DNA from: a virus | Taxonomy: Duplodnaviria > Heunggongvirae > Uroviricota > Caudoviricetes | IMG/VR virus record: IMGVR_UViG_3300029720_000461 | Strand: one strand, 5' to 3' | DNA length: 64,000 nucleotides | Shown: piece by piece, positions 6,477-18,712 of the stretch | How the letters are laid out: each line of letters opens with the position of its first letter | How positions within the stretch are numbered: position 1 is the stretch's first letter | The notes under the pieces: model-generated | The model's database searches: none | What the model was told of the DNA's origin: nothing | Seen by the model: the letters and a program-made list of their open reading frames with translations, nothing else | Program-made: the position numbers and the translations under genes

Positions 6477-6794
6477 ATGGCAGATACGAATGTTGTTAAA
6501 AACTGGGTACTTAAAGTAATGCAGCAAAAAATTACTGAAGGTAAAGGATGTATGCTTAACTGTGCGTTAAATGGCAGGAAGAACCCTGATGGTACATATC
6601 CAAAGAGTATGTACATAAATGTATGGATAGACGGTAAGTGCGAATGTGAACCGGATGATTATACAGGAAAGTACATAGAAGTAGATGGAAGATTTACAAC
6701 AGGTGATTATATATCGAAAAAAACCGGTGAAACAGTGCTTACATTTACAATATTTGCAACTGAAGTCAGAACACATATCTGGACTAATAATTAA
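6477..6794 (+). CDS. hypothetical protein
   Basis: 105-aa ORF with AAGGAG RBS. Confidence 0.5.
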   Translation: MADTNVVKNWVLKVMQQKITEGKGCMLNCALNGRKNPDGTYPKSMYINVWIDGKCECEPDDYTGKYIEVDGRFTTGDYISKKTGETVLTFTIFATEVRTHIWTNN

Positions 6795-6822
6795 GGTTAA
6801 GTTTTTTGAGAGGGAATATTTT

Positions 6823-7242
6823 ATGGGAAAGAACAAACATTTTTCAAACATTGATGTAGCTATATGTAAGGTAAGCGGAAACAAATATTACAGTTTATCA
6901 GACCTTGATGTTGCAGACGGAACAATTGATTTTGATGTAGAAGAACCTGTTGAATCAGATTATGTGATTATACTTAATCCTTGGACTGATAAAATTGTAC
7001 TTCCTATATCAATGGAACAGATAATTGAACTCAGTCTTGTTAATCAGAAATTTTTAACAACAATCGGCGGACTGGATGATGAAGAAGATTTAATATATCT
7101 TATAGCTGCTAAAAAGATATATGCAAACACTAATTTAATGATAATTGAGAATAGTAATGAAGACGGTACTGTTACATATAATTTTTACCGCAACAGATTT
7201 TTTATTAAGAATAATCAGCCGACTGTTTCAATCACAAAATAA
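6823..7242 (+). CDS. hypothetical protein
   Basis: ATG at 6823 (MGKNKHF...) preceded by a GAGAGGGAA RBS; the longer listed ORF has no RBS. Confidence 0.5.
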   Translation: MGKNKHFSNIDVAICKVSGNKYYSLSDLDVADGTIDFDVEEPVESDYVIILNPWTDKIVLPISMEQIIELSLVNQKFLTTIGGLDDEEDLIYLIAAKKIYANTNLMIIENSNEDGTVTYNFYRNRFFIKNNQPTVSITK

Positions 7243-7249
7243 ATAAATT

Positions 7250-7318
7250 ACATCCGTGGTGTAATAGTAACATGACAGTTTCCACTGTAAGCTGAAGGTT
7301 CAAGTCCTTCCGGGTGTG
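7250..7318 (+). tRNA. tRNA-like, probable pseudogene (aberrant anticodon arm)
   Basis: Acceptor acatccg/cgggtgt, D stem gtgt/acat, T arm gaagg-ttcaagt-ccttc; the only good anticodon-arm pairing acagt/actgt leaves a 4-nt loop (ttcc); total 69 nt. Confidence 0.4.
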
Positions 7319-7440
7319 CTTTAAGGATATAACACTTGATATATCTGACAGTACTTAAAGATATTAAAAAGTGTATCGTGAAAGCGAAAGGGAAAATGTG
7401 CAAATAAGACCCTTATACGATTGCAATATATCCTTAATAA

Positions 7441-7511
7441 TCTGACTTAGTTTAATGGCAAAACACTGGCTTTGTAACCCAGTAATGTGAGTTCGATTCT
7501 CTCAGTCAGAA
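7441..7511 (+). tRNA. tRNA-Thr(TGT)
   Basis: Acceptor tctgact/agtcaga; anticodon arm ctggc-tttgtaa-cccag (anticodon TGT); T loop ttcgatt; T stem has one mismatch. Confidence 0.6.
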
Positions 7512-7545
7512 TTATACATATTAAATATTTATAAGGAGCTTTGAT

Positions 7546-7638
7546 ATGCCACCAATTATAGAAAATAAAGACTATGCTGTGATAGGTATAGTTGCAGCAG
7601 TTATTATCAGTATTATTGTTATAATAAAGCTGATTTGA
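7546..7638 (+). CDS. small hydrophobic peptide (30 aa, single TM)
   Basis: MPPIIENKDYAVIGIVAAVIISIIVIIKLI with AAGGAG RBS; below the ORF-track cutoff. Confidence 0.3.
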   Translation: MPPIIENKDYAVIGIVAAVIISIIVIIKLI

Positions 7639-7814
7639 GTAAACTTAAAAAGCATTGTATAGGACATATATTAATGTCTTATATGATGCTTTTTATTATG
7701 CTGTTAAAACACAAATCTTTTTGTTTTAAATTATATAAAAAAGCTTTTTTATATAAATTGTGATTTCTGACATTGATACAATATACAAAAAGATAATTAA
7801 AGGAAGTTAAAAAT

Positions 7815-8225
7815 ATGGAAATAACAATCAGTTGTACTAAGAAGCAGGCATTGCTTATACAGGAAGCAATGGAAGAATATTTTAAAATAAGACTTAACCA
7901 GTTTGACACACTTGCCAATGCACTTGCGTTTGACGGATACGAAAAGTGTGAGCAGGGCTTTGGAAGGCGTGTGGAAGTAAGACAACAGTTAGATAAGGTA
8001 TTTAAGGAAGCCGGAGAACTTCATATGAAAGCAACCGGTGAAGATGCATGTCCTAAAGGCTCTGTAGCTGTGAAATCTGATAACTGCATGGATATGATTA
8101 ATATATATAATGCGTTAAGAATTGCTTTAATTAAAGCTTCTAAGCCTGTAGGAAAGCCGGAAGAAGCTGTAACACTTGAAGACCTTGGCATACCGGTTAT
8201 TTTAGTCAGGAGTGCTGAGTATTGA
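7815..8225 (+). CDS. hypothetical protein
   Basis: 136-aa ORF. Confidence 0.5.
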   Translation: MEITISCTKKQALLIQEAMEEYFKIRLNQFDTLANALAFDGYEKCEQGFGRRVEVRQQLDKVFKEAGELHMKATGEDACPKGSVAVKSDNCMDMINIYNALRIALIKASKPVGKPEEAVTLEDLGIPVILVRSAEY

Positions 8226-8246
8226 GTATCAAGTTAGGAGTTGTTT

Positions 8247-8819
8247 ATGAGCGATATAAATGGTGTAAGTATAAAAAAGCTTACCATAAGCAGGGAAACA
8301 AATGAAGAAAAGAACAAAACTTATTTAACTGTAGCAGCAAGCATATATCTGTCAGGTAAAAAGCTTGGAAACTGGGAATATAAAAGCATATCTACAGGCG
8401 TGGAAAGCAGCAATTTTGATTTCGACTATAAGCTTTTAGAAGAAGCCGCCATGTCACATAAGGTTAAATACAGACCTTTTAAATCGCATGAATTTGAAGA
8501 TTTTGAAGAGAAAGATGTAACGGAGCTTTTAAAACATGTAGCAGACCTTACAATACAGGAAAATAAGTTTAATGAATATATCAAAGCCGGATATAAGGGT
8601 ATGTTAGATTTTACAAATGACAAGTACCATTTTTATGAGCCTTTAATGTATGGAGATGCTAAAGAATTTATGCGGCTTAATCCGGGCAAAGTAGCTCATT
8701 GTAAAAAATATTGTGGAGATAATATGCGTGTAGATACATATACGGATGTAAAACAGTTCAGCCTGCATCTAAAAGAAAAAAGCAGACAGTACAGTTTATT
8801 TGATTATATGATTATTTAA
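8247..8819 (+). CDS. hypothetical protein
   Basis: The listed ORF begins at a TTG; ATG at 8247 (MSDINGV) with AGGAG RBS. Confidence 0.5.
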   Translation: MSDINGVSIKKLTISRETNEEKNKTYLTVAASIYLSGKKLGNWEYKSISTGVESSNFDFDYKLLEEAAMSHKVKYRPFKSHEFEDFEEKDVTELLKHVADLTIQENKFNEYIKAGYKGMLDFTNDKYHFYEPLMYGDAKEFMRLNPGKVAHCKKYCGDNMRVDTYTDVKQFSLHLKEKSRQYSLFDYMII

Positions 8820-8838
8820 AAAAAGGATGTGAAGCAGT

Positions 8839-9159
8839 ATGAGTATATTTAATAAAAAGAAGGATAAAAAAACTGAAACAAATGAACTTGAGAATATACT
8901 TATTGAAATGACTTCACAGCTTAAAAGCTTAAGAGAAGATGTGGGAAAATTACAAAGCTTTGAAAAACGTATAACAGAGCTGGAAGTAAAATATACGGAG
9001 CTTAATCAGGAAATGTTAGACCGGTATGATTCATTAACAGAAAACATTAAAAGAACAGACGGTAGAAGAAGAATACATTCATCAGAACAGGAAAATGACG
9101 GACTGTTTAACAGCTTTGATTATGAGCAGATGAGAGCAAGATTAAGGAATAAGAAATAA
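8839..9159 (+). CDS. hypothetical coiled-coil protein
   Basis: 106-aa ORF, heptad-like charged sequence. Confidence 0.45.
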   Translation: MSIFNKKKDKKTETNELENILIEMTSQLKSLREDVGKLQSFEKRITELEVKYTELNQEMLDRYDSLTENIKRTDGRRRIHSSEQENDGLFNSFDYEQMRARLRNKK

Positions 9160-9190
9160 CATAAAATAATAAATAAATAACATATAAATG

Positions 9191-9219
9191 TTGACATTGA
9201 ACAAAAAGTATGTTATTAT
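9191..9219 (+). promoter_or_regulatory. sigma70-type promoter (TTGACA-17-TATTAT), copy 2, ahead of tRNA island
   Basis: Near-identical to the 6383 element: ttgacattgaacaaa...tattat. Confidence 0.45.
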
Positions 9220-9339
9220 ATAAGAGAAGTAAGAGAGTACATAATTAAAACAATATGGACAAAATGAACCGAAACTCCCTCCACCGGTTCAGCTTCCAAA
9301 TTATTTATGGATAAAGTTAATTGCCAAATTTTATCCATA

Positions 9340-9447
9340 CGGGATAAAACTTAAATTTAATTTTCTTTCAGAAATTAAATCGGTAAGTATAAACACTGGA
9401 CAAATAGTATGCTGTCCTATGTACAGGTTCGATTCCTGATATCCCGT
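9340..9447 (+). other. tRNA-like element of aberrant length
   Basis: Perfect 7-bp acceptor-like pairing cgggata/tatcccg and T arm (a)cagg-ttcgatt-cctg(a), but about 107 nt and no canonical D arm. Confidence 0.2.
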
Positions 9448-9779
9448 TTAGCTGCTTTTGCAGCAAATATTTCTTATTAAGTATTTATAAGATTATTGGA
9501 TATATAAAAAAAGGATATTGGTTGAATATATATTCAGTTGTCTTACTAACCAAATAAAAATCTGGTAAGGCACTCCTTTTTAAGTTTAGCTATAGTAGGT
9601 AAAATTTGATGTAATTCTTATGGCTAGTGTGGTGTGGTTAAAGTACCGTTCGATTCGGTTGTCAAACATCAAGAGTTAAGTTAAACCACATTAATGACTT
9701 AACTGCTATAGCTAAATGTACATTCTGACTTAAGTAATATATCAAGTATATTATTATACTTTTGACCTGCCGCCCATTT

Positions 9780-9852
9780 GGTTCTTTAGCTCAGTTGGTA
9801 GAGCATCCGGCTCATAACCGGAAAGTCTTAGGTTCGAGTCCTAGAAGAACCA
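9780..9852 (+). tRNA. tRNA-Met/fMet/Ile2 (CAT)
   Basis: Acceptor ggttctt/aagaacc; D arm tagctcagttggtagagca; anticodon arm tccgg-ctcataa-ccgga; T arm ttagg-ttcgagt-cctag. Confidence 0.8.
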
Positions 9853-10010
9853 CTGCTATATAGCTTTGGCACGAATAAGTTATATGGCACTGTTGTTTGA
9901 CTTTTTTTGTCATGTTTGAAATACAGATATTAGAAAGAACATTTTGCTGGGTGTATCTGTATTATTCTACTAGCAAATGAAAGTGTTCGGTAGAATCTTC
10001 TTTCTTTTAT

Positions 10011-10084
10011 TGGAATGTGGTCTAATTTGGTAAGGCGCTTGATTTGGGTTCAAGAAATTGTCGGTTCAAATCTGGTCATTCCAA
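10011..10084 (+). tRNA. tRNA-Pro(TGG)
   Basis: Acceptor tggaatg/cattcca (perfect); anticodon arm cttga-tttgggt-tcaag; T stem relies on G-U pairs. Confidence 0.65.
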
Positions 10085-10185
10085 CTAAAGCTTGTCACTT
10101 ATTAAATGCAAATAATACCTTTAAAAGGGAGAATAAAACTATGAGTGATGGATATGGATTGCTATTTTAATTAAGGAGACATGTT

Positions 10186-10518
10186 ATGCAAAAATTATCA
10201 AGAAATTTAGAGCAATTAAAAAATTCAGTAAATAGTTCTAAAAACCGAAATATACGATTTGTTAATGTTAAAGCTGTTAGGCAGTGTAAATATTGTGGAA
10301 GTATAATTGGTGTAGGTGATACTTGTCTTACTGTAAATAAGAAGAAAGAAGGCAGAAGATGGGTTTGTTTATCTTGTGCAAATGCTATTTTAGGATATAA
10401 GGAAACTAAAGTACAAATGAACTGTGTTCCATTTGGAGATGAAGGTGCTTACATGGCTTTATGTGATTTTGCAGCCGAGCAAGAAGCAGAATTATATGAC
10501 AGAGGTATTTTGTATTGA
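10186..10518 (+). CDS. hypothetical zinc-ribbon protein
   Basis: CKYCGS...CLSC Cys pairs; 110 aa. Confidence 0.5.
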   Translation: MQKLSRNLEQLKNSVNSSKNRNIRFVNVKAVRQCKYCGSIIGVGDTCLTVNKKKEGRRWVCLSCANAILGYKETKVQMNCVPFGDEGAYMALCDFAAEQEAELYDRGILY

Positions 10519-10523
10519 AGATT

Positions 10524-10621
10524 TGGTTAGATGACATTAGACCAGCACCAGAAGATTATGTGCAGTGTAAATATCTTCTTTGTTAATCTGTGTGTTGTGG
10601 GTTCGAGTCCCACTTAGCCAG
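10524..10621 (+). other. tRNA-like element / tRNA 3'-end fragment (possible att core or pseudogene)
   Basis: T arm gtggg-ttcgagt-cccac followed by ttagcca, which pairs with tggttag 90 nt upstream; no canonical D or anticodon arm. Confidence 0.2.
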
Positions 10622-10698
10622 CTTGTTGTTCTTTTTAAGAATGATATTATTCATTATCGTATCAGTAATGAGCGTAGTAAAAATAACAAGAAGGAGTA

Positions 10699-11001
10699 AT
10701 GATTATGAGTAATTGTGGTCTTGTTGTAAATAAAAACGATATTAACACATACTTTCAAAGTTTTATTAAACCTAGAATTTTTGACGCTGAATGGCATATA
10801 AGCTTAGCGTCAGATTTTCTTAATATAATTGATAAAGATGAATTTAAGTTAGATGATTTATGTAATCCTAAATACATAAAAGATGTTCTTAATGATAATA
10901 AAGATAATGAATACACTAAAGCTGTCCTCTATAGAAAAAATCCTGAAATGTATATATCGGGAATATTTAGATTGTATGATTTATACTTAAAGAGCAAATA
11001 A
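10699..11001 (+). CDS. hypothetical protein (paralog of 12829..13131)
   Basis: Shared motif D..FHI.LA..FL..ID.DE ... PE.YIS..F with the 12829 ORF. Confidence 0.5.
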   Translation: MIMSNCGLVVNKNDINTYFQSFIKPRIFDAEWHISLASDFLNIIDKDEFKLDDLCNPKYIKDVLNDNKDNEYTKAVLYRKNPEMYISGIFRLYDLYLKSK

Positions 11002-11092
11002 TCAAGGATGACGGTTACGGATTAGTATTTTAATAATAAAGGAGAGTGGTTTGTATGTTTAGTGATTTTAGAAATTCAATAGGAGTATAAAA

Positions 11093-11165
11093 GGATTGTA
11101 AGCTAACTCGGTAGAAGCGTCTGTCTGAAGAACAGAAGGAATTGGTTCGACACCAATACAATCCA
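11093..11165 (+). tRNA. tRNA-Phe(GAA)
   Basis: Acceptor ggattgt/acaatcc; anticodon arm tctgt-ctgaaga-acaga; T arm attgg-ttcgaca-ccaat; overlaps and invalidates the minus ORF 11030..11224. Confidence 0.8.
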
Positions 11166-11284
11166 TTAGCACTGCTGAAGTGGTTGTAAATGTAATTGTC
11201 TGAGTTCTTTACAATCAGGTGCAAAACAAAATCAGATATATCAGACTATTTCTTCAGCAATATATATCTGATTATATTAAATAA

Positions 11285-11813
11285 TGCGGGATAGAGCAGT
11301 TGGAAGCTCGCAAATGTATTATTTAAGTAAAGGAGAGGTATGTTTCATGGATTCTCCAAAAAATATGGGAAACAAAGCAGAGATAGTTGTTATATCAGAA
11401 TTTATTAAAAATGATATACCTGTTTCAATTCCTTTTGGACAAAATGAACCATATGATTTAGTAATTGATACAAAATATGGATTTAAGTCTGTTCAAGTAA
11501 AACATGGAACTTATAGAAATGGTTGCGTTGTTGTAGATATAAGACATCGAATAGGATATTCTAAAATAGAATATAGTACATATGATGGCAAAGCTGATTA
11601 TATCGCAATATGGTGCGAAGAATTAAATACTTGCTATTTATTAGATATTAAAGAATGTAATGGAAAAACCAATCTTAGATTAAGAATTGATAATCCTAAA
11701 AATAATTCTTGCATTTCAACTATAGTTTGGGCTAAAGATTATGAATTTTCTAATAAAGTTCTTTTACTAAAATAATACATTTGAGGTCACAGGTTCAAGT
11801 CCTGTTCCCGCTA
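11285..11813 (+). tRNA. interrupted tRNA gene (5' half 11285-11315, 3' half 11779-11813) split in the anticodon loop by a 463-bp ORF-bearing insertion
   Basis: 5' half has canonical geometry: acceptor tgcggga, U8A9, D arm gagc-agttggaa-gctc, G26, anticodon-stem strand caaat. 3' half: atttg, variable aggtc, T arm acagg-ttcaagt-cctgt, acceptor tcccgct. The two anticodon-stem strands extend into a perfect 12-bp helix caaatgtattat/ataatacatttg. Confidence 0.5.
11347..11775 (+). CDS. PD-(D/E)XK-like nuclease (Hjc/endonuclease-like) encoded inside the tRNA insertion
   Basis: Motifs EPYDLVID ... KSVQVKHG (PD...(D/E)XK spacing); AGGAGAGG RBS 8 nt upstream; fills almost the whole insertion. Confidence 0.45.
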   Translation: MDSPKNMGNKAEIVVISEFIKNDIPVSIPFGQNEPYDLVIDTKYGFKSVQVKHGTYRNGCVVVDIRHRIGYSKIEYSTYDGKADYIAIWCEELNTCYLLDIKECNGKTNLRLRIDNPKNNSCISTIVWAKDYEFSNKVLLLK

Positions 11814-11859
11814 CTGGTTGTTCCCCGACAGCCTATTTAGATTAAATATAAACACTCGT

Positions 11860-11933
11860 TCTGATTTAGTTTAATGGTAAAACACCTGTAGTCAAATACG
11901 GGAGATTAAGGGTTCGATTCCTTTAAGTCAGAA
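11860..11933 (+). tRNA. tRNA (paralog of tRNA-Thr at 7441) with 8-nt anticodon loop; identity uncertain
   Basis: Acceptor tctgatt/agtcaga and D arm near-identical to 7441; the best anticodon arm cctgt-agtcaaat-acggg has an 8-nt loop; one extra nt between T stem and acceptor. Confidence 0.4.
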
Positions 11934-11939
11934 TCGGTG

Positions 11940-12830
11940 ATGTCGGTATTATTATTGAGAAGTTGCTTGCAATAGTCAGTAATAGTATTGGATAAGCCGT
12001 AATAAAAAAATAACAGATACCCTAGTGAAGAAGGGCTGTCACCCTGCTAGGACATTCTTAGAGTAGTCTGTATTAAGAAGGATACCTTTTAATATAGGAT
12101 TTAAGTGACATTATAATTGATAAGTCCACTACTTATTAAGAAGATGGAGCTTGAAGGTTACGGAAAGTACCAATAGTTAGGAATGGTGTATCTATACAGT
12201 TTAATATAATGCCGCAACAGTGTGGGGAGAGCAATAGACGCTTGAGAAGAGAAGAACCTTAAGTCTTAGTCTTGTGGTGGGATTGAGCAGCTTAAGGAAT
12301 ACCAAACAATCTCCTTCGCTATGATGTTGTAGAAATACAACTATAACACACAGCAGCGGACAAGTAGCCCATAGGCGTGAAATGAGAAATTGGATGAATT
12401 AAACCAATATAAAATTCTGAATGATGGGTGAAAGTTGCAGGTAGAAAATCCTGTCATAGCATTGGGGAGAAATCCTGTGGTAAGAAGTTTAGAGGTCGCT
12501 CCTTTAAGCTCAGACTTATCATCTATGTAGCATAATAATAGCGGACTGTATAGGATAAGGCGAAAGCCTATCTGTTTTTATAATATTAGTCCTTTTGATT
12601 TAGGTTCTAGTTCCGTAAGGAGTATGGGTTCGACTCCCATAGAGGGCATTCACCTTAGCTCAATTACAATAAGTCTTAATAAGTAGCTATGATGACGATT
12701 ATACTGAAAATTTAGAATAGTTGTATACCTTTTGGGTGATTGACTATAGCGGTATCCATTTGTAGAGCAACCCCTTGTTGCGGGGTAGTATTCGGTAGAA
12801 GTCCGAGGGTGATTTATAAGGAGAAAATAT
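11940..12830 (+). ncRNA. candidate large structured non-coding RNA (GC-enriched, ORF-free block beside tRNAs)
   Basis: About 890 nt with no ORF of 60 aa or more on the gene strand, visibly higher GC than flanks, many GNRA-like and paired segments, a tRNA-like T arm plus acceptor-like 3' end (atggg-ttcgact-cccat agagggc) at 12615-12647. Confidence 0.25.
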
Positions 12831-13131
12831 GAAACTAACAAAGAAACAAATAATTGAATATATGAATAAATATATTCGAGGGTATTTATATGATGCTGAT
12901 TTTCACATATGTTTAGCAACAGAGTTTTTGAAATTGATTGACTGTGATGAAGTTGATATTGTTGAATATCAGAATATACCGTTAATTTTGCAGGTTATAT
13001 CTGAGCATAGTGAGACAGAAACCGCAAAATCTATTCTATGTCGCAAAACGCCTGAGTTGTATATTTCAGCATTGTTTGCAACATTAGAAAGACGTATCAA
13101 TGAGTATATTAATATGACGAAAACAGTATGA
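12829..13131 (+). CDS. hypothetical protein (paralog of 10699..11001)
   Basis: AAGGAGAA RBS; shared motifs with the 10699 ORF. Confidence 0.5.
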   Translation: MKLTKKQIIEYMNKYIRGYLYDADFHICLATEFLKLIDCDEVDIVEYQNIPLILQVISEHSETETAKSILCRKTPELYISALFATLERRINEYINMTKTV

Positions 13132-13178
13132 GTAAATCCTATAAAAACCCGGATATACATTAGAATTAAGTATTATTT

Positions 13179-13251
13179 GTGTCACTAGCTCAGTTGGTAG
13201 AGCATACGACTTTTAATCGTAGGGTCACGGGTTCAAATCCCGTGTGACACA
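13179..13251 (+). tRNA. tRNA-Lys(TTT)
   Basis: Acceptor gtgtcac/gtgacac; D arm gctcagttggtagagc; anticodon arm tacga-cttttaa-tcgta; T arm acggg-ttcaaat-cccgt. Confidence 0.8.
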
Positions 13252-13494
13252 CTTAATCCGGTACAGGATGCAGATTATAAAAGCAGAATTGTATTGGATA
13301 TCAGTGGAAATCTGAATTATTAAGTGCAATATGTAATGGGACAACGTATTGTATGATAGCTGTGATAATCAGTATTTGCGAACAAAGAACGATGGGAAAA
13401 ACATGTCAGCAGGTGCAGGGTAAGTGTGCATAGCTTATCACAGAGGTTTCGATACCAAAGGGCATGTTTTCGTTCATTCCCGAAAGGAGAAGAT

Positions 13495-14073
13495 ATGTAT
13501 TATTTACTGGATTATGAAAATATTGGTTCGTTAGGGCTTAAAGGGATTGACAGCCTTACAGATAAAGATATTGTGTGTATATTTTATTCAGAAAATGCTC
13601 ATACAATTGATTTGGAAGCAATAGAAATGTTTAAGAGTACAAAGGCGGCAGTCAAATACATAAAAGTAAAGAAAACCGCACCGAATTATGCAGATTTTCA
13701 GATTGTTACCCTTACAGGCTTAATTTTAGGAAAAGACAGTAAAGAAAAGGTTGCAATTATAAGCAATGATAAAGGCTATGTAGCAGTTATTGATTATCTT
13801 AAGGAAGACTGTGTAACAGGAACAAACAGAATAATTGAGCTTGCATCTACAATTGCAGATGTTAAAGGAAGTAACAGAAAAATAGAAAACAATGATTTAA
13901 AACAGAATCATAATTTCTATGATATTAATGATAAGAGAGTGAAAAATGTCATAAAAAGAAGTACAAATAAAGGTATGCTGAAATTAAACCTTATTGAAAG
14001 CTTTGGACGAATAGACGGACTTGAGCTTTTTAACAGACTTGAAAAAGATTTCAGACCTAGAAAAAGAGTGTAA
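13495..14073 (+). CDS. NYN/PIN-like domain protein (putative RNase)
   Basis: ATG at 13495 with AAAGGAGAAG RBS; N-terminal YLLDYENIG and later ISNDKGY resemble the NYN (LabA-like) acidic motifs. Confidence 0.4.
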   Translation: MYYLLDYENIGSLGLKGIDSLTDKDIVCIFYSENAHTIDLEAIEMFKSTKAAVKYIKVKKTAPNYADFQIVTLTGLILGKDSKEKVAIISNDKGYVAVIDYLKEDCVTGTNRIIELASTIADVKGSNRKIENNDLKQNHNFYDINDKRVKNVIKRSTNKGMLKLNLIESFGRIDGLELFNRLEKDFRPRKRV

Positions 14074-14316
14074 ATGAAAGACCTGATATTAAGACTGACA
14101 GATAAAGGAGTGGCATCTATGACCGGAAATAACAACCATATATTTTTAAAAGAGCTTAAAGAAAGAGAAAAGATGTCATATGCAGAATTAAGTGAATTAA
14201 CAGGCATACCAAAGGATACACTTGCTAACTGGATACTTGGCAGGCGTGAACCGCCTGACTATGTTATAAAGCTGCTAAAAGAAAAACTTACAGTATCTAA
14301 AGGAGACACGTTATGA
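14074..14316 (+). CDS. XRE-family helix-turn-helix transcriptional regulator
   Basis: MSYAELSELTGIPKDTLANW HTH; C-terminal PDYVIKLL motif shared with the 53389 regulator. Confidence 0.6.
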   Translation: MKDLILRLTDKGVASMTGNNNHIFLKELKEREKMSYAELSELTGIPKDTLANWILGRREPPDYVIKLLKEKLTVSKGDTL

Positions 14317-14603: not shown

Positions 14604-14684
14604 TTATTTATAGGGAAGGACATCATGTGAAAGCATCTTGCCTTTCCCTTTTTGTATACTGATAAATAGAAAGGAGTGTTATAT

Positions 14685-15692
14685 ATGCGTAAAAAGAAAA
14701 AATCCAAGCTTATAAAATGTGAAAATAATAAATATATATATGTATATAATGATTGGGAAACTTTAGGAAGCGTAAAAAGGATTTTAAGTTCAAGTGAAAA
14801 AGAAGCAAACGATAAAAAAGAAGCAGATGATATAAAAAAATATGAATACCTTGAAAAATTGAGAAAAGAAGGAACTCTAACAAGTGCCGTAAAATATTAT
14901 ATTCTGGCTTATGTAATAGAAACTTATACATTAAGTGAAATCATTCCTTATAGAAACCGGTGTGAGAAGCGTATATGTGATAATATCGGTTATTTAAAGG
15001 CGGATTTAATTACATCAGCTCAGGTAAATGATTATTTGTCAGGTATCACACATCTGTATAATGATTCAGGTCTTAAAAGCATAGCAGCATGTATTAAAGA
15101 ATCTGTCAGATGCATGACAGGTAGGGAACTGGATATTACTGTTCCTAAAAGCAGGCTGAACAACAGATATATTCTTAGTAATGAAGAAAAGAAAGATTTT
15201 GAAAAATATTGTATCAGCATTAATAATATAGAAGAAAAAACATTGTTATTTTCACTGTATACAGGAATTAAAATTGCAGATATCATAAACCTTGCATGGA
15301 AAGATTATAAATGCAATTCTGTAACGGTTAATAAAAAAATAATTCAACTGGATAAAAAAAGCAGGGATTTAATCAGCCAATTAAAACAGGAAAATCAGGA
15401 GAAAATATTTGTAAGAGATGGTCTTCTTTCTGATTCTTATTATTACACACTTGGAAGACATTTAAGAAATATAATTAATTATACAGGTATACCTGATGCT
15501 GTTAATTTCTTAAGTCTTAGAAATACCAAAATAATAGAGATGTATAATGAAGGTTTACCTTTTGCACAGATAAATAATAGTATAGGTTTTAATTTTGACA
15601 GAGAAAGGCAGGAAATATATAAAGCAAAAAAATATATTGAAAATATTGTAGAAAGCAATAGAATATATGAAGAAAGAAAAAAAGATATTTAA
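14685..15692 (+). CDS. tyrosine-recombinase-like protein with degenerate catalytic residues
   Basis: C-terminal segments resemble integrase box I/II (LYTGIKIADIINLAW; LSLRNTKIIEMYNEGLPFAQINNSIGF) but R->K, H->L, H->F substitutions; ATG at 14685 (listed ORF starts at a GTG). Confidence 0.35.
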   Translation: MRKKKKSKLIKCENNKYIYVYNDWETLGSVKRILSSSEKEANDKKEADDIKKYEYLEKLRKEGTLTSAVKYYILAYVIETYTLSEIIPYRNRCEKRICDNIGYLKADLITSAQVNDYLSGITHLYNDSGLKSIAACIKESVRCMTGRELDITVPKSRLNNRYILSNEEKKDFEKYCISINNIEEKTLLFSLYTGIKIADIINLAWKDYKCNSVTVNKKIIQLDKKSRDLISQLKQENQEKIFVRDGLLSDSYYYTLGRHLRNIINYTGIPDAVNFLSLRNTKIIEMYNEGLPFAQINNSIGFNFDRERQEIYKAKKYIENIVESNRIYEERKKDI

Positions 15693-16825: not shown

Positions 16826-18712
16826 ATGGATAAACAAAAATTTACTTATAAAGTATATGATGCTAAAACAAGAAGCTTCATATATGAAGAGGATTTCACA
16901 AGTGATAATCCTTTTAAAGATATAGCAGAACGGATGAGTAAAGAAGACATATCACATGGGAGTCTTTATATCGTGGCAGAAAATGAAAACGGACAGGAAG
17001 CTGCATATACGATTGTAAAGAAAAGTGGTACAAAATTCGTTAAGTATGAACATTGTGATTTTCCTTTATCATATATAGATTTTGATATTGAGCCAAGATA
17101 TCTTACATGTATTGATGAAGTGTATAACCACTATAAGTATTATGAGATAACCTTTGATAAGGATAATTTAAGGACAAATGTAAGATATGGACGTATAGGT
17201 GCTGATAAGAATGATACATTTGGTGAGCGTGAATATGATTATCCTTTATCTATGTACTGGGTTAAATATTATGAGAAATTGTCAAAAGGCTATGAAGATA
17301 AAAGTGAACTTAAGGATTTTGATAACAGGCAGAAAAAAGGAACTGAATATGAACCTGTTAAGGATAAATACTCAAAATCACTTATTGAGTTCCTTATAAG
17401 AAAGCAGAAAGACTATGTTGAAAGTAATTATTCAACCGGTGCAGCATTTTCAATGGAAGCTGTAAAAAAATCTGAAAAGATACTGGAAGAGTTAAAGGCA
17501 TATGCTGATTCATCATTTTCAAATAAACAGTTTAAAATAAGAGAACTCTTTAAGGAGCTTGTAACAATATTGCCAAGAAGAATTGCAGATGTATCAAACT
17601 ATCTTAATTATATAACAGGTTTAAGTTCTGAAGCTTTAATGGAACATATTGAACAGGAAGAAGACCTGCTTAATAACTTTAAGGACTTATATGTTAAAAA
17701 AGAAAATGAAGCTGAAGAGAAAGCTGATAATAAAGACATACTTGAAGCTAATAATTTAACAGCCACATGTACGGATTATAAAGACATACATATGATAGAA
17801 GATAAGCTTGATAAAGATATGGCGGCAATGAAGACAGTATTAGCTGTTAAAAATAAATATACTAATGACCGTTACATAGCATGTAAAAAAGAAAAAGGCA
17901 TTGAGAACAGGGGATGTCATTTATTATGGCACGGAAGCCGTACAGAAAACTGGTGGAGTATATTTAAGAATGGTTTAACACTTAATAATAACGCAATAGT
18001 AACAGGAAAGATGTTCGGACAGGGATTATACTTTGCTCCTAAAGCTGAAAAGAGTATGAATTATACATCAAGTTTAGGAAGCTATTGGACAGGCGGTAAT
18101 GATAAAACTGGCTTTATGGCGTTATATGCAGTTGCTATGGGTAAACCTTATGAAATTGACCATGCACTTAGTTCATATTTTACTGAAAAGGATTTAAAGC
18201 ATGGCTGTCATTCAGTATGGGGAAAAGCAGGAAGACATTTAAGAAATGATGAATGCATTATTTATGATGAAAGACAGTGTGACATTAAGTTTTTGCTTGA
18301 GGTTGACAGGGAAAGAGAAAAGTATCTTACACCTGAATTTATAAAAGCTGCAAGGAATATAAAACTCAATCAGTTAAAAGCAGATAAAAACGGATTAAGA
18401 GCTTATATGAGCTTAAGAACTCCTGACAGTACTTTTAGCAGACTGAATATGGATAAAAATAATAAAGTCGAATTTATTTATACTTATGATAACACACTTA
18501 CAATCAAGACATATGATAAGGAACTTAAATCAAGTGAAAAGGAACTTAAATTTAATTCATATCAGACTGATTATCTTAAAATGATGTTTAAAGAAAATTT
18601 CACTTCTAATGACAGGGAATTTGATATGTTACTTGAAGAAAAACAGAAGGAAGTACAAAAGCCAAAGACTAAAGTAAAAAAGAAAGAAATTGAAATGTCT
18701 CTGCTTGCATAA
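16826..18712 (+). CDS. WGR-like + PARP-catalytic-domain ADP-ribosyltransferase
   Basis: N-terminal YYEITFDKDNL...VRYGRIGAD (WGR-like); catalytic H-Y-E signature: LLWHGSRTENWWSIFKNGL, GQGLYFAPKAEKSMNYTS, NDECIIYDERQCDIKFLLEV (cf. PARP1 HGS / GIYFA / NEYIVYD). Confidence 0.75.
   Translation: MDKQKFTYKVYDAKTRSFIYEEDFTSDNPFKDIAERMSKEDISHGSLYIVAENENGQEAAYTIVKKSGTKFVKYEHCDFPLSYIDFDIEPRYLTCIDEVYNHYKYYEITFDKDNLRTNVRYGRIGADKNDTFGEREYDYPLSMYWVKYYEKLSKGYEDKSELKDFDNRQKKGTEYEPVKDKYSKSLIEFLIRKQKDYVESNYSTGAAFSMEAVKKSEKILEELKAYADSSFSNKQFKIRELFKELVTILPRRIADVSNYLNYITGLSSEALMEHIEQEEDLLNNFKDLYVKKENEAEEKADNKDILEANNLTATCTDYKDIHMIEDKLDKDMAAMKTVLAVKNKYTNDRYIACKKEKGIENRGCHLLWHGSRTENWWSIFKNGLTLNNNAIVTGKMFGQGLYFAPKAEKSMNYTSSLGSYWTGGNDKTGFMALYAVAMGKPYEIDHALSSYFTEKDLKHGCHSVWGKAGRHLRNDECIIYDERQCDIKFLLEVDREREKYLTPEFIKAARNIKLNQLKADKNGLRAYMSLRTPDSTFSRLNMDKNNKVEFIYTYDNTLTIKTYDKELKSSEKELKFNSYQTDYLKMMFKENFTSNDREFDMLLEEKQKEVQKPKTKVKKKEIEMSLLA

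What the first reader, a model, noticed from the sequence alone, without database searches (positions are those of the whole stretch)
7250..13251. tRNA island mixing canonical and structurally aberrant tRNAs
Five canonical tRNAs (Thr-TGT, Met-CAT, Pro-TGG, Phe-GAA, Lys-TTT) sit among atypical copies. One has a 4-nt anticodon loop (7250-7318). A Thr-like paralog has an 8-nt anticodon loop plus an extra nucleotide (11860-11933). Three roughly 100-nt elements carry perfect acceptor-like pairing and T arms but lack normal D and anticodon arms (9340-9447, 9596-9735, 10524-10621). An 8-nt anticodon loop is the hallmark of +1 frameshift suppressor tRNAs. The over-long elements could be intron-bearing tRNAs, decoys, or att-type tRNA 3' fragments.
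Basis: seen in the sequence. Interest (0 to 1): 0.6.

Follow-up and report, generated by a model that had tools for sequence, protein, structure and literature searches.

The report
tRNA island scrambled by homing endonuclease
A 6-kb cluster of transfer-RNA genes on a very large human-gut mobile element holds five normal tRNAs, a ROOL RNA and seven odd tRNA-like pieces; three of the odd pieces are demonstrably wrecks or rearrangements of ordinary tRNA genes (one was split by a selfish endonuclease gene that has no self-splicing intron around it), while one odd tRNA with an 8-base anticodon loop is clearly kept by selection.

Summary
ARAGORN and Rfam confirm five canonical tRNAs, a tRNA with a 4-nt anticodon loop (7250-7319) and a Thr-like tRNA with an 8-nt loop and an 8-bp acceptor stem (11860-11933). 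The ~100-nt elements with acceptor-like and T-arm pairing are also there.

About 45 related gut contigs show the island is a presence/absence mosaic.
- 12589-12648 is tRNA-Leu(UAG) minus 22 nt.
- 10524-10621 is the 3' half of tRNA-Asn(GUU) fused to a foreign 5' half.
- 11285-11814 is an initiator-like tRNA-Met. Its anticodon stem-loop was replaced by a PD-(D/E)XK homing-endonuclease ORF (I-Ssp6803I family) with inverted-repeat ends and no group I ribozyme. The uninterrupted allele exists in sister contigs. Eight of ten endonuclease lineages examined sit in tRNAs in the same way.

The 8-nt-loop tRNA is maintained: four of five anticodon-stem pairs covary while the loop AGUCAAAU stays fixed.

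Frameshift suppression, att remnants and spliced introns are not supported. Overall this is a new variant of known kinds and moderately interesting.

The parts
7250..7319 (+). E1: tRNA-like with a collapsed anticodon arm (5-bp stem, 4-nt loop UUCC). Starts 7 nt after the stop of ORF 6685-7242.
   Evidence: ARAGORN 'tRNA-???(tc)'; Rfam tRNA 52.3 bits; fold. There are 4 sequence variants in sister contigs and all keep UUCC. A metagenome scan gave 5 more copies, all with the 4-nt loop and none with a 7-nt loop. E1 is absent from the diverged relative L040.
7441..7511 (+). Canonical tRNA-Thr(UGU), with a C31xC39 mismatch.
9191..9219 (+). Strong sigma-70-like promoter TTGACA-17-TATTAT with an extended -10 TG, upstream of E3. 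It is conserved in sister contigs and in L040.
   Evidence: 11 of 12 matches; alignment; L040 sequence.
9340..9447 (+). E3: 108-nt tRNA-shaped four-way junction. It has a 7-bp acceptor-like stem, a long bent hairpin in the D position, a second hairpin with a 10-nt loop, and a T arm with loop UUCGAUU. A terminator-like hairpin follows at 9451-9464.
   Evidence: Fold z = -3.65. Six variants were found. Pair A10-U49 changes to G10-C49, and the hairpin loop is not conserved (UCUUUCAG versus CUAA). Terminator-like hairpin. No Rfam family matches.
9585..9716 (+). E4: 132-nt structured element with a 14-bp terminal stem, an internal T-arm-like hairpin and a possible loop-loop pairing between GUGUGGUU and AACCACAU. 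With its 3' spacer it is a ~195-nt presence/absence module sitting exactly at the 5' edge of tRNA-Met.
   Evidence: Fold z = -2.8. Present in roughly half of the sister contigs; only 2 variants, so covariation cannot be tested.
9780..9853 (+). Canonical tRNA-Met(CAU), elongator-type D stem.
10011..10085 (+). Canonical tRNA-Pro(UGG).
10186..10518 (+). ORF110, a protein with two CxxC motifs and no family match. It always travels together with E7.
   Evidence: Co-occurrence with E7 in L032-L039.
10524..10621 (+). E7: chimeric tRNA-Asn remnant. The 3' 41 nt, from the GUU anticodon through the T arm and acceptor, are 93-98% identical to the tRNA-Asn that follows tRNA-Pro by 2 nt in other contigs. 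The 5' ~55 nt are unrelated, yet they still supply the acceptor 5' strand UGGUUAG and pair with the old anticodon region.
   Evidence: alignment A1; fold.
11093..11165 (+). Canonical tRNA-Phe(GAA).
11285..11814 (+). Initiator-like tRNA-Met gene (T1xT72 mismatch, A11:T24) disrupted in the anticodon arm. tRNA positions 1-27 are 11285-11311 and positions 43-73 are 11783-11813.
   Evidence: ARAGORN -i. Compared with the uninterrupted allele in L033 (3632-3705) and L040 (8441-8514).
11312..11782 (+). 471-nt cassette that replaces the 15 nt TAGGCTCATAACCTA (anticodon stem-loop) of the intact allele. Its ends are an inverted repeat.
   Evidence: allele comparison; inverted repeat I2, arms 11311-11334 and 11760-11783, 24 nt, 92% complementary; the fold shows a cloverleaf plus a 14 + 8 bp helix that pairs the Shine-Dalgarno AAAGGAG with the 3' end of the ORF.
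11347..11775 (+). PD-(D/E)XK homing-endonuclease gene of the I-Ssp6803I family (142 aa).
   Evidence: Pfam PF11645, E = 7.8e-26. PDB 2OST chain A, E = 0.002. 69 homologues, all PF11645, with D37, Q50 and K52 invariant.
11860..11933 (+). E10: non-canonical tRNA. It has an 8-bp acceptor stem, a normal D arm (GG present) and T arm, and the 8-nt anticodon loop AGUCAAAU. It lies 62-63 nt upstream of ROOL wherever it occurs.
   Evidence: Twelve variants give 98.9% paired cells; 4 of 5 anticodon-stem pairs change on both sides; 0 of 500 shuffles reach this. L040 copy.
11997..12589 (+). ROOL RNA (RF03087).
   Evidence: 331.6 bits against a gathering score of 99.1.
12589..12648 (+). E12: tRNA-Leu(UAG) lacking 22 internal nt (the D arm and the 5' strand of the anticodon stem). 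The acceptor stem and T arm are intact. It starts at the last base of the ROOL model.
   Evidence: Alignment with the intact tRNA-Leu of L019, 13862-13943. Rfam tRNA 23.1 bits.
13179..13252 (+). Canonical tRNA-Lys(UUU).

Best explanation
The stretch is a fast-changing tRNA/ROOL-RNA island on a very large mobile element found in human-gut metagenomes. Its 'aberrant tRNAs' fall into two classes.

Class 1 is debris from gene turnover.
- A PD-(D/E)XK homing endonuclease of the I-Ssp6803I family has replaced the anticodon stem-loop of an initiator-like tRNA-Met with its own ORF-only cassette. No precise excision could restore the CAU anticodon.
- A tRNA-Leu has lost 22 nt.
- A tRNA-Asn has had its 5' half swapped out when ORF110 arrived.

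Class 2 is odd tRNA-shaped RNA that is fixed in the family.
- The 8-nt-loop tRNA (E10) is held in shape by selection.
- E1 and E3 cannot be judged for lack of variation.

Shown: the polymorphism, the origins of three remnants, the absence of a ribozyme, and the covariation in E10.

Inferred: the endonuclease cuts the palindromic anticodon stem-loop DNA of the intact allele, and repair copies the cassette in. Also inferred: the acceptor and T-arm modules that every remnant keeps still serve as RNase P / RNase Z cutting signals. These would release the neighbouring tRNAs, ROOL and the small mRNAs from a common + strand transcript. On this view the endonuclease mRNA is excised inside a tRNA-like frame, and a long closing helix hides its ribosome-binding site.
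For: Mosaic structure. BLAST and ARAGORN over L001-L020, L032-L040 and L044-L048 show each element present or absent independently, in otherwise >95% identical contigs.

Remnant origins. E12 equals tRNA-Leu minus 22 nt. E7 equals the tRNA-Asn 3' half plus foreign 5' sequence.

Endonuclease cassette.
- The protein matches PF11645 at E = 8e-26.
- The intact allele in L033 and L040 is identical at tRNA positions 1-27 and 43-73, but carries CTAGG-CTCATAA-CCTAG where the window has the 471-nt cassette.
- Alleles with and without the endonuclease, plus a third allele, co-circulate.
- No Intron_gpI match at E <= 10 in the window, nor at E <= 0.5 in six other split loci.
- The insertion is only a 20-35 nt leader plus the ORF.
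- The same arrangement occurs with endonucleases at 82, 78, 74, 74, 62 and 60% identity (L052, L021, L050, L051, L031, L025/L030/L070/L107) and at 29% identity in a non-initiator tRNA (L063).
- The closing helix is conserved with different sequence in the window (14 + 8 bp), L021 (5 + 16 bp) and L063 (5 + 7 bp).

E10.

Processing idea.
- Every remnant keeps a 7-bp acceptor stem and a T arm.
- The ROOL 3' end abuts a tRNA or the remnant by 0-12 nt in the window, L019, L040 and L001.
- E1 starts 7 nt and E7 starts 5 nt after the stop codon of the upstream ORF.

Precedent. The T4 tRNA cluster holds the segB endonuclease gene and the 139-nt species 1 RNA, which folds with a terminal stem, a T arm and two long hairpins.
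Against: No expression or end-mapping data exist, so processing by RNase P/Z and any role for the remnants are inference. Keeping the acceptor and T arms could simply reflect how recent the deletions are.

In L002 ROOL is followed by 216 nt before the next tRNA. L034, L036 and L039 lack E10. Neither flank is therefore obligatory.

E1 and E3 vary too little to show selection: E1 has 4 variants, and E3 has one compensatory pair.

In L031, L051 and L063 the exon sequences are intact, so a precise excision would restore a good tRNA. That leaves room for an unknown splicing route in those lineages.

Cleavage by this endonuclease has not been shown.
Confidence: 0.7

Rival explanations
1. E10 is an aminoacylated, decoding tRNA with an unusual reading mode. 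It could be a +1 frameshift (quadruplet) suppressor. Alternatively it could be a triplet reader with an enlarged loop that reads UUG/UUA (anticodon CAA, or UAA in one variant), or UGA/UAA (UCA or UUA).
For: The 8-nt loop is invariant in 10 of 12 variants, while the stem beneath it covaries. The D loop keeps GG, the T loop is canonical and the discriminator is A73. The one loop change at the candidate anticodon, C34U in L003, keeps a Leu or stop-reading anticodon. Yeast mitochondrial tRNAThr1 shows that an 8-nt loop can decode (PMC3113583).
Against: There is no U at the position that would be U33 in a quadruplet layout (A-G-UCAA-A-U). The predicted 8-bp acceptor stem is the feature that weakens EF-Tu binding about 100-fold in tRNASec (PMC7609411). 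Treating TGA or TAG as sense does not lengthen ORFs in the window. E10 is absent from some sister contigs. No gene needing a frameshift was identified.
Confidence: 0.15
2. E1 and E10 (and perhaps E3) are non-decoding tRNA mimics. They would act as decoys or competitors for host tRNA-directed nucleases or modification enzymes, as part of the element's counter-defence.
For: They keep the overall tRNA shape but have unusable or unusual anticodon loops. The E10 anticodon stem changes fast while its loop is fixed. Phage tRNA clusters are known counter-defence loci, and endonucleases remodel them (PMC13096335). A PIN7-domain protein is encoded right after the island at 13426-14073.
Against: There is no direct evidence. 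No matching nuclease or defence system was identified. E1 is missing from the diverged relative L040.
Confidence: 0.15
3. All the aberrant elements, including E10, are neutral pseudogenes that are simply young.
For: E12, E7 and the split tRNA-Met are demonstrably broken genes. E1, E3 and E4 show almost no variation. Truncated or irregular tRNA-like pieces also occur in unrelated arrays: L021 4466-4526, L040 1901-1966 and L063 7805-7924.
Against: In E10, six substitutions in the 10 stem positions of L040 are all compensatory, with no change in the 8-nt loop. Overall 98.9% of cells are paired and 0 of 500 shuffles reach this. E3 has its own strong promoter and a terminator-like hairpin.
Confidence: 0.1
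4. The insertion-bearing tRNA-Met, and the long elements, are intron-containing tRNA genes whose transcripts are spliced into working tRNAs.
For: The endonuclease family and the site (anticodon loop of tRNA-fMet) match the Synechocystis group I intron that encodes I-Ssp6803I (PMC1995217; PMC13011429 places these introns at position 33/34). In L031, L051 and L063 a precise excision would give an intact tRNA.
Against: No group I match was found. Only 20-35 nt lie outside the ORF, against about 200 nt of ribozyme in the 655-nt Synechocystis intron. No G is available as the last intron base. In the window, tRNA positions 28-42 including CAU are replaced, so no excision can give tRNA-Met. L025 has a degenerate anticodon arm.
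Confidence: 0.05
5. The tRNA 3' fragments are att-site remnants left by integrase-mediated insertion into tRNA genes.
For: A weak integrase-like ORF lies at 14676-15692 (Phage_integrase, E = 6e-4, below the Pfam cut-off).
Against: Each fragment has a specific alternative origin: an internal deletion that keeps both ends, a matching 5' half 470 nt upstream, or a chimera that keeps its own acceptor 5' strand. All lie deep inside contigs of 0.1-0.6 Mb.
Confidence: 0.03

Closest known systems
I-Ssp6803I, the PD-(D/E)XK homing endonuclease encoded in the group I intron of Synechocystis tRNA-fMet (Bonocora & Shub 2001; Zhao et al. 2007; PDB 2OST)
   Same: Same protein family: PF11645 at E = 8e-26 and 2OST at E = 0.002 with the YD...VQVK motif aligned. 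Same kind of host gene (initiator-type tRNA-Met) and same place (anticodon loop; group I introns in tRNA-fMet sit at 33/34, PMC13011429). The target is a pseudo-palindromic stem-loop (PMC3384342); here the intact allele reads CTAGG-CTCATAA-CCTAG. Alleles with and without the endonuclease coexist, as expected for homing.
   Different: There is no group I ribozyme. The cassette is 443-483 nt with a 20-35 nt leader plus the ORF, against a 655-nt intron with a 150-codon ORF (PMC1995217). In the window the anticodon and four stem pairs are replaced by an AT-rich inverted repeat, so the tRNA cannot be restored. The hosts are phages or mobile elements of gut Firmicutes, not cyanobacterial chromosomes. 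Hausner et al. 2014 state that all phage group I introns known then were in protein genes, none in phage tRNA genes (PMC3984707).
Phage T4 tRNA cluster with the segB homing endonuclease and the stable species 1 (rnaC, 139 nt) and species 2 (rnaD, 119 nt) RNAs
   Same: A tRNA array that contains an endonuclease gene and over-long stable RNAs of unknown function. rnaC folds with a terminal stem, a canonical T arm (CCGGG-UUCGAAU-CCCGG) and two long hairpins, the same layout as E3 and E7. SegB cuts within tRNA genes and drives inheritance and amplification of the tRNA region (PMC8421152, PMC13096335).
   Different: SegB is a GIY-YIG enzyme and lies between tRNA genes, not inside one. blastn of the island against the phage collection matched only ordinary phage tRNA genes among the rows listed. 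E7 is demonstrably a recent chimera rather than a conserved gene.
Natural tRNAs with 8-nt anticodon loops: yeast mitochondrial tRNAThr1(UAG), and laboratory +1 frameshift suppressors of the sufD/sufG type (the latter from general knowledge)
   Same: E10 has an enlarged 8-nt loop on a 5-bp stem and a Thr-like body. Its first 26 nt are 92% identical to the island's tRNA-Thr (D8). The loop contains a Leu-type triplet, CAA.
   Different: tRNAThr1 is mitochondrial, derives from tRNA-His and has a dedicated synthetase (PMC3113583). E10 also has an 8-bp acceptor stem, and G where U33 would be in a quadruplet layout. Decoding by E10 is untested.
tRNASec and allo-tRNA-type non-canonical tRNAs (8/5, 8/4, 9/3 acceptor/T domains)
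   Same: E10 is predicted to have an 8-bp acceptor stem plus a 5-bp T stem, and possibly a 6-bp anticodon stem. ARAGORN labels it 'SeC|Leu'. Irregular tRNA polycistrons linked to mobile elements have been reported (PMC7609411).
   Different: E10 has a 5-nt variable region and a normal 4-bp D stem. It therefore lacks the long variable arm and the 6-bp D stem that define tRNASec-like molecules.
ROOL RNA (RF03087) in phage and prophage tRNA islands
   Same: A full-length match at 331.6 bits. The location next to tRNAs is the published norm (PMC5737381, PMC12286853).
   Different: Nothing unusual in the RNA itself. The new points are that a tRNA or tRNA remnant directly abuts its 3' end, and that E10 sits at a constant distance upstream.

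Membership tests
Canonical elongator tRNA (for E1 and E10) | Matches the Rfam tRNA model above its gathering score | tested here: met
   E1 52.3 bits and E10 39.2 bits, against a gathering score of 29.
Canonical elongator tRNA (for E1 and E10) | 7-nt anticodon loop with U33 and a 3-nt anticodon | tested here: not met
   E1 has a 4-nt loop UUCC. E10 has an 8-nt loop AGUCAAAU. ARAGORN can only assign 2-nt 'anticodons'.
Canonical elongator tRNA (for E1 and E10) | 7-bp acceptor stem and 5-bp T stem, with two linker nucleotides (positions 8 and 9) | tested here: inconclusive
   E1 meets it. E10 is drawn with 8 bp and one linker, but the eighth pair, U8-A66, never varies.
+1 frameshift suppressor tRNA | 8-nt anticodon loop | tested here: met
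   E10 only.
+1 frameshift suppressor tRNA | Loop laid out as N32-U33, a 4-nt anticodon, then R37-N38 | tested here: not met
   The loop A-G-U-C-A-A-A-U puts G at position 33. The alternative reading has an extra base 5' of U33 and a 3-nt anticodon CAA (read directly from the sequence).
+1 frameshift suppressor tRNA | Genes that need quadruplet reading, or measured suppression | not testable with these tools
   Only the stop-codon recoding test was possible, and it was negative.
Group I intron with an I-Ssp6803I-type endonuclease in tRNA-fMet | Endonuclease belongs to PF11645 with an intact PD-(D/E)XK-type motif | tested here: met
Group I intron with an I-Ssp6803I-type endonuclease in tRNA-fMet | Inserted in the anticodon loop of an initiator-type tRNA-Met gene | tested here: met
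   1:72 mismatch, A11:T24, and CAU in the intact allele. L031 has the full TCGGG/CCCGA stem with C1xA72.
Group I intron with an I-Ssp6803I-type endonuclease in tRNA-fMet | A self-splicing group I ribozyme surrounds the ORF | tested here: not met
   No Intron_gpI match at E <= 10 or at E <= 0.5 in six other loci. Only 35 nt + 7 nt of the cassette lie outside the ORF.
Group I intron with an I-Ssp6803I-type endonuclease in tRNA-fMet | Joining the exons restores a functional anticodon loop | tested here: not met
   In the window, positions 28-42 including CAU are replaced. The feature would be met on paper in L031, L051 and L063.
Homing endonuclease gene in general (mobile, selfish) | Alleles with and without the gene at the same locus, with homologous flanks | tested here: met
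   L033 and L040 lack it, whereas the window and more than 20 contigs carry it. The identical protein also sits in a second genomic background, L002/L005/L010.
Homing endonuclease gene in general (mobile, selfish) | The enzyme cleaves the empty allele | not testable with these tools
   Needs purified protein and the L033 target.
ROOL RNA (RF03087) | Covariance-model score above the gathering threshold over the full model | tested here: met
   331.6 bits, model positions 1-574.
T4 species 1-like stable tRNA-like RNA (for E3 and E7) | Lies in a tRNA cluster and has a terminal stem, a canonical T arm and long hairpins in place of the D and anticodon arms | tested here: met
   Folds of E3 and E7 and of T4 rnaC.
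T4 species 1-like stable tRNA-like RNA (for E3 and E7) | Sequence homology to rnaC or rnaD, and accumulation as a stable RNA | not tested
   No direct comparison with rnaC or rnaD was made. blastn of the island against the phage collection listed only tRNA-gene matches among the rows shown. Stability cannot be tested with these tools.
att-site tRNA fragment | A 3' tRNA piece that duplicates the end of an intact tRNA at the other border of an integrated segment | tested here: not met
   The fragments are explained by a deletion, a cassette and a chimera.
tRNASec / allo-tRNA-like | Long variable arm and extended D stem together with the long acceptor stem | tested here: not met
   E10 has a 5-nt variable region and a 4-bp D stem.

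The most novel reading that the evidence does not exclude
The PD-(D/E)XK cassettes could be a distinct, ribozyme-free kind of mobile insertion that uses a tRNA gene as an RNA frame. The tRNA body would let RNase P and RNase Z cut the endonuclease mRNA out of the tRNA-array transcript. The conserved inverted-repeat helix that closes the cassette would gate its translation, or act as the mobility signal at the DNA level. Next to it, E10 could be a selected bacterial-element tRNA with an 8-nt loop and an 8/5 acceptor domain that has a real decoding or regulatory job, possibly tied to ROOL.
Probability: 0.2. Interest if true: 0.75.

Novelty: new variant of a known kind. Interest (0 to 1): 0.55.

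Why it matters
Homing endonucleases are thought to survive inside genes only when an intron or intein hides them. Here an I-Ssp6803I-type enzyme occupies its family's classic target, the anticodon loop of initiator tRNA, with no ribozyme. It does so in at least eight sequence lineages from gut phages and mobile elements. That gives a natural test of what happens when the host gene is dispensable. It may also be a case of a ribozyme being lost while the endonuclease is kept.

The work also explains how 'weird tRNAs' arise in mobile-element tRNA arrays, and it warns annotators that such pieces are often remnants.

It separates out one odd tRNA (8-nt loop, 8-bp acceptor stem, always 62-63 nt upstream of ROOL) that is under selection and can now be tested experimentally.

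The direct abutment of tRNAs or tRNA remnants on the ROOL 3' end offers a simple, testable route for ROOL maturation.

Tried and rejected
- **Group I intron.** Rfam scans of the island, of the 600-nt split locus, and of six other split loci gave no Intron_gpI match.
- **Known RNA family for the long elements.** No Rfam match for E3, E4 or E7; YrlA and tmRNA were considered (ARAGORN -m).
- **Stop-codon recoding as a reason for a suppressor tRNA.** Making TGA or TAG sense does not extend ORFs.
- **RNA target for the E10 loop.** The complement ATTTGACT does not occur on the + strand of the window.
- **Intact progenitor of E1.** A metagenome scan found only 4-nt-loop copies. E1 is not close to the tRNA-Gly(UCC) of L002.
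- **Relatives in reference collections.**
  - GenBank phages gave only ordinary tRNA matches.
  - PLSDB plasmids gave none.
  - IMG/VR gave none by the ORF190 protein or the E10 pattern.
  - One IMG/VR scan was wasted on a pattern one base too long for the window type.
- **Broad IMG/VR pattern for split initiator tRNAs.** It returned 100 hits. Most of the 88 loci examined were false (tRNA-fMet followed by another tRNA about 480 nt away); only L070, L107 and, by protein, L063 were real.
- **Nature of the element.** PHROGs, Pfam and NCBIfam gave no function for the small island ORFs and no phage structural genes in the window. Whether the element is a megaphage or a plasmid stays open.
- **GTDB genome scan with the endonuclease profile.** It gave only two loci, both in Lachnospiraceae MAGs.

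Full report
**1. Checking the observation**

ARAGORN finds seven tRNA genes on the + strand between 7250 and 13252. Five are canonical: Thr-tgt, Met-cat, Pro-tgg, Phe-gaa and Lys-ttt. Two are 'tRNA-???'. All seven pass the Rfam tRNA gathering score.

- The element at 7250-7319 (E1) folds into a normal cloverleaf, except that its anticodon arm is a 5-bp stem with the 4-nt loop UUCC.
- The element at 11860-11933 (E10) has an 8-nt loop, AGUCAAAU. It also has an 8-bp acceptor stem with a single linker base.
- The long elements at 9340-9447 (E3) and 10524-10621 (E7) have 7-bp acceptor-like stems and canonical T arms around non-tRNA hairpins.
- The third long element is better placed at 9585-9716 (E4). 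Its T-arm-like hairpin is internal.

The T-loop motif GGTTCRANTCC occurs 8 times in the window. All copies are on the + strand and lie within 7297-13240, against 0.07 expected.

**2.

Three further elements lie inside the same coordinates.

- A full-length ROOL RNA at 11997-12589 (331.6 bits).
- A 60-nt tRNA-like piece (E12) that starts at the last ROOL base, 12589-12648.
- A tRNA split by a 456-nt insertion at 11285-11814. ARAGORN finds it once introns are allowed. Its label 'Ile-aat' is an artefact.

The inserted ORF, 11347-11775, is a PD-(D/E)XK endonuclease of Pfam PF11645 (E = 7.8e-26). This is the family of I-Ssp6803I (PMC3424549). It also matches PDB 2OST directly (E = 0.002).

**3. Source of the window**

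The exact endonuclease protein is recorded in 488 collection blocks. The contigs read were almost all labelled as human-gut metagenomes and reach 0.5-0.6 Mb.

- Nothing similar is in GenBank phages, PLSDB or IMG/VR.
- Window genes include TnpB, EAL, flotillin, T2SS-E/F-like, DUF932, PIF1 and PARP proteins, but no recognisable virion genes.
- Homologous endonucleases occur in Lachnospiraceae MAGs.
- The element is large and mobile-looking. Whether it is a phage or a plasmid is unresolved.
- It uses the standard genetic code.

**4. The island is a mosaic**

Across about 45 sister and cousin contigs that are otherwise >95% identical, each element is present or absent independently.

- E12 is the tRNA-Leu(UAG) of L019 with a clean 22-nt internal deletion. 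The deletion removes the D arm and the 5' strand of the anticodon stem.
- The last 41 nt of E7, from the GUU anticodon onward, are 93-98% identical to the tRNA-Asn that follows tRNA-Pro by 2 nt in other contigs. Its 5' part is unrelated, and it arrives together with ORF110.
- E4 plus its spacer is a ~195-nt indel exactly at the 5' edge of tRNA-Met.
- Irregular or truncated tRNA-like pieces also occur in the diverged relative L040 and in unrelated arrays, L021 and L063.

**5. The split tRNA**

L033 and L040 carry the uninterrupted allele. It is a 74-nt initiator-like tRNA-Met with a T1xT72 mismatch, A11:T24 and the anticodon arm CTAGG-CTCATAA-CCTAG.

The window allele is identical at tRNA positions 1-27 and 43-73. 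The 15 nt TAGGCTCATAACCTA are replaced by a 471-nt cassette, 11312-11782. The cassette ends form a 24-nt inverted repeat that is 92% complementary.

- The CAU anticodon is gone, so no excision can regenerate tRNA-Met.
- The predicted RNA is a cloverleaf whose anticodon stem runs on for 14 + 8 bp. This helix pairs the Shine-Dalgarno AAAGGAG with the last codons of the ORF.
- No group I ribozyme is detectable, and only 35 + 7 nt of the cassette lie outside the ORF.
- By contrast, the Synechocystis tRNA-fMet intron that encodes I-Ssp6803I is 655 nt for a 150-codon ORF (PMC1995217).

The arrangement recurs in other lineages.

- Endonucleases at 82, 78, 74, 74, 62 and 60% identity sit in initiator-like tRNAs in other phages and MAGs.
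- A 29%-identical homologue sits in a perfect non-initiator tRNA in an 80-kb phage contig with a 28-tRNA array.
- Two lineages are free-standing.
- None of the six further loci scanned has a group I match.
- The closing helix is kept with different sequence in L021 (5 + 16 bp after a C32xA38 mismatch) and in L063 (5 + 7 bp).
- In L031, L051 and L063 the exon sequences are still intact. In the window, L021 and L025 they are not.

**6. The 8-nt-loop tRNA (E10)**

Twelve distinct variants were collected. They include the copy in L040, whose neighbouring PIN7 protein is only 80% identical to the window's. The results are as follows.

- 98.9% of cells are paired.
- Four of the five anticodon-stem pairs change on both sides (CCUGU/ACGGG to CUUAC/GUGAG).
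- 0 of 500 shuffles reach this level.
- The loop changes in only two variants, at one base each.

The arm is therefore under selection.

E10 lies 62-63 nt upstream of ROOL wherever it occurs, but it is missing from L034, L036 and L039. Its first 26 nt are 92% identical to the island's tRNA-Thr. Its 8-bp acceptor stem, if real, is the feature that disfavours EF-Tu in tRNASec (PMC7609411).

**7. E1 and E3**

E1 always has the 4-nt loop, but it varies too little to judge and is absent from L040.

E3 sits between a strong promoter, TTGACA-17-TATTAT at 9191-9219, and a terminator-like hairpin at 9451-9464.

- It shows one compensatory pair and a non-conserved hairpin loop.
- At the same position L040 has a different, 46-nt hairpin that carries a T-loop motif.
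- The nearest precedent is T4 species 1 RNA (rnaC, 139 nt) in the T4 tRNA cluster. It folds with a terminal stem, a T arm and two long hairpins, and it lies near the segB endonuclease gene.

**8. Mechanism: what is shown and what is inferred**

Shown:
- the polymorphism;
- the origin of E7, E12 and the split tRNA;
- the lack of a ribozyme;
- selection on E10.

Inferred from the family's known biology (PMC1995217, PMC3384342):
- the endonuclease cuts the palindromic anticodon stem-loop DNA of the empty allele, and repair copies in the cassette;
- the altered flanks of the cassette protect it from self-cleavage.

Inferred from the anatomy:
- every remnant keeps the acceptor and T-arm module, the part of a tRNA that RNase P and RNase Z are generally held to recognise (general knowledge);
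- ROOL's 3' end abuts a tRNA or a remnant by 0-12 nt in the window, L019, L040 and L001, though not in L002;
- E1 and E7 start 7 and 5 nt after upstream stop codons.

These modules therefore plausibly punctuate a common transcript.

**9. Comparison with known systems and novelty**

- ROOL in a tRNA island is already known (PMC5737381, PMC12286853).
- Endonuclease genes in tRNA arrays, and their role in remodelling those arrays, are known (PMC8421152, PMC13096335).
- I found no report of an I-Ssp6803I-type gene sitting inside tRNA genes without an intron, and recurrently so. A 2014 review notes that no phage tRNA gene was then known to carry an intron (PMC3984707).
- I also found no report of the selected 8-nt-loop, 8/5 tRNA next to ROOL.

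Both are variants of known kinds rather than new categories.

Noticed in passing
window 11997-12589: Full-length ROOL RNA (RF03087, 331.6 bits), not mentioned in the finding. A tRNA or tRNA remnant starts 0-12 nt after its 3' end in the window, L019, L040 and L001. ROOL also lies near endonuclease-split tRNAs in two other lineages (L021 76-784, L050 1534-2250).
   Followed up: partly
window 13426-14073 and 14074-14316: A PIN7-domain protein (PF18475, E = 2e-23) followed by a small HTH protein lies directly after the island. The pair is conserved in all sister contigs. It could be an RNase or toxin-like pair next to a tRNA island.
   Followed up: no
window 10699-11001 and 12829-13131: Two paralogous 100-aa ORFs with no family match, each placed between tRNA-type elements. 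98-104-aa ORFs occupy the same slots in sister contigs.
   Followed up: no
L034 3815-3889, L035 3621-3694, L036, L039, L046 4646-4719: A third allele at the split-tRNA locus. It is a different tRNA-Met(CAU) with a 1:72 mismatch, an odd D region (GACAGGAGAGG) and the anticodon stem CAGG/CCTG. It may be an endonuclease-resistant replacement.
   Followed up: partly
L002, L005, L010 (about 9860-11240): The block Phe / split tRNA-Met with endonuclease / E10 / ROOL is 97-100% identical to the window, but sits in a different genomic background (YopX, TnpB, HipA neighbours). This implies recent transfer of the block between elements.
   Followed up: partly
L040 1775-1836, 1901-1966 and 7504-7549: The diverged relative has its own irregular tRNA-like pieces. 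One is a 66-nt tRNA with a 4-bp anticodon stem and the 6-nt loop AUAAAA, next to tRNA-His. Another is a 46-nt hairpin with a GGUUCGAAUCC T-loop motif, at the position E3 occupies in the window.
   Followed up: partly
L063 8651-9208 and 7805-7924: An 80-kb IMG/VR phage contig with a 28-tRNA array. A remote PDDEXK_5 homologue (29% identity) is inserted in a perfect CCA-encoding tRNA. A separate 120-nt over-long tRNA-like gene has an acceptor stem, a T arm and an encoded CCA.
   Followed up: partly
window 25888-27006; also L002, L005, L040: TnpB / IS605 OrfB (Cas12f-like) genes are scattered in this element family. In L040 one occupies the place where E1 and tRNA-Thr sit in the window.
   Followed up: no
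window 16826-18712; L040 2205-2963: A 628-aa PARP-domain protein is conserved downstream of the island. The relative L040 also encodes a PARG-like protein upstream.
   Followed up: no
L042 8458-10119: A contig carrying a 69%-identical PIN7 homologue encodes an RtcB RNA ligase interrupted by an intein. It has no tRNAs within 13 kb.
   Followed up: no
whole window; contigs: All long ORFs are on the + strand, with GC near 30% and steadily positive GC skew. Sister contigs reach 0.5-0.6 Mb yet are absent from IMG/VR, GenBank phages and PLSDB. This points to an undescribed very large gut element.
   Followed up: partly
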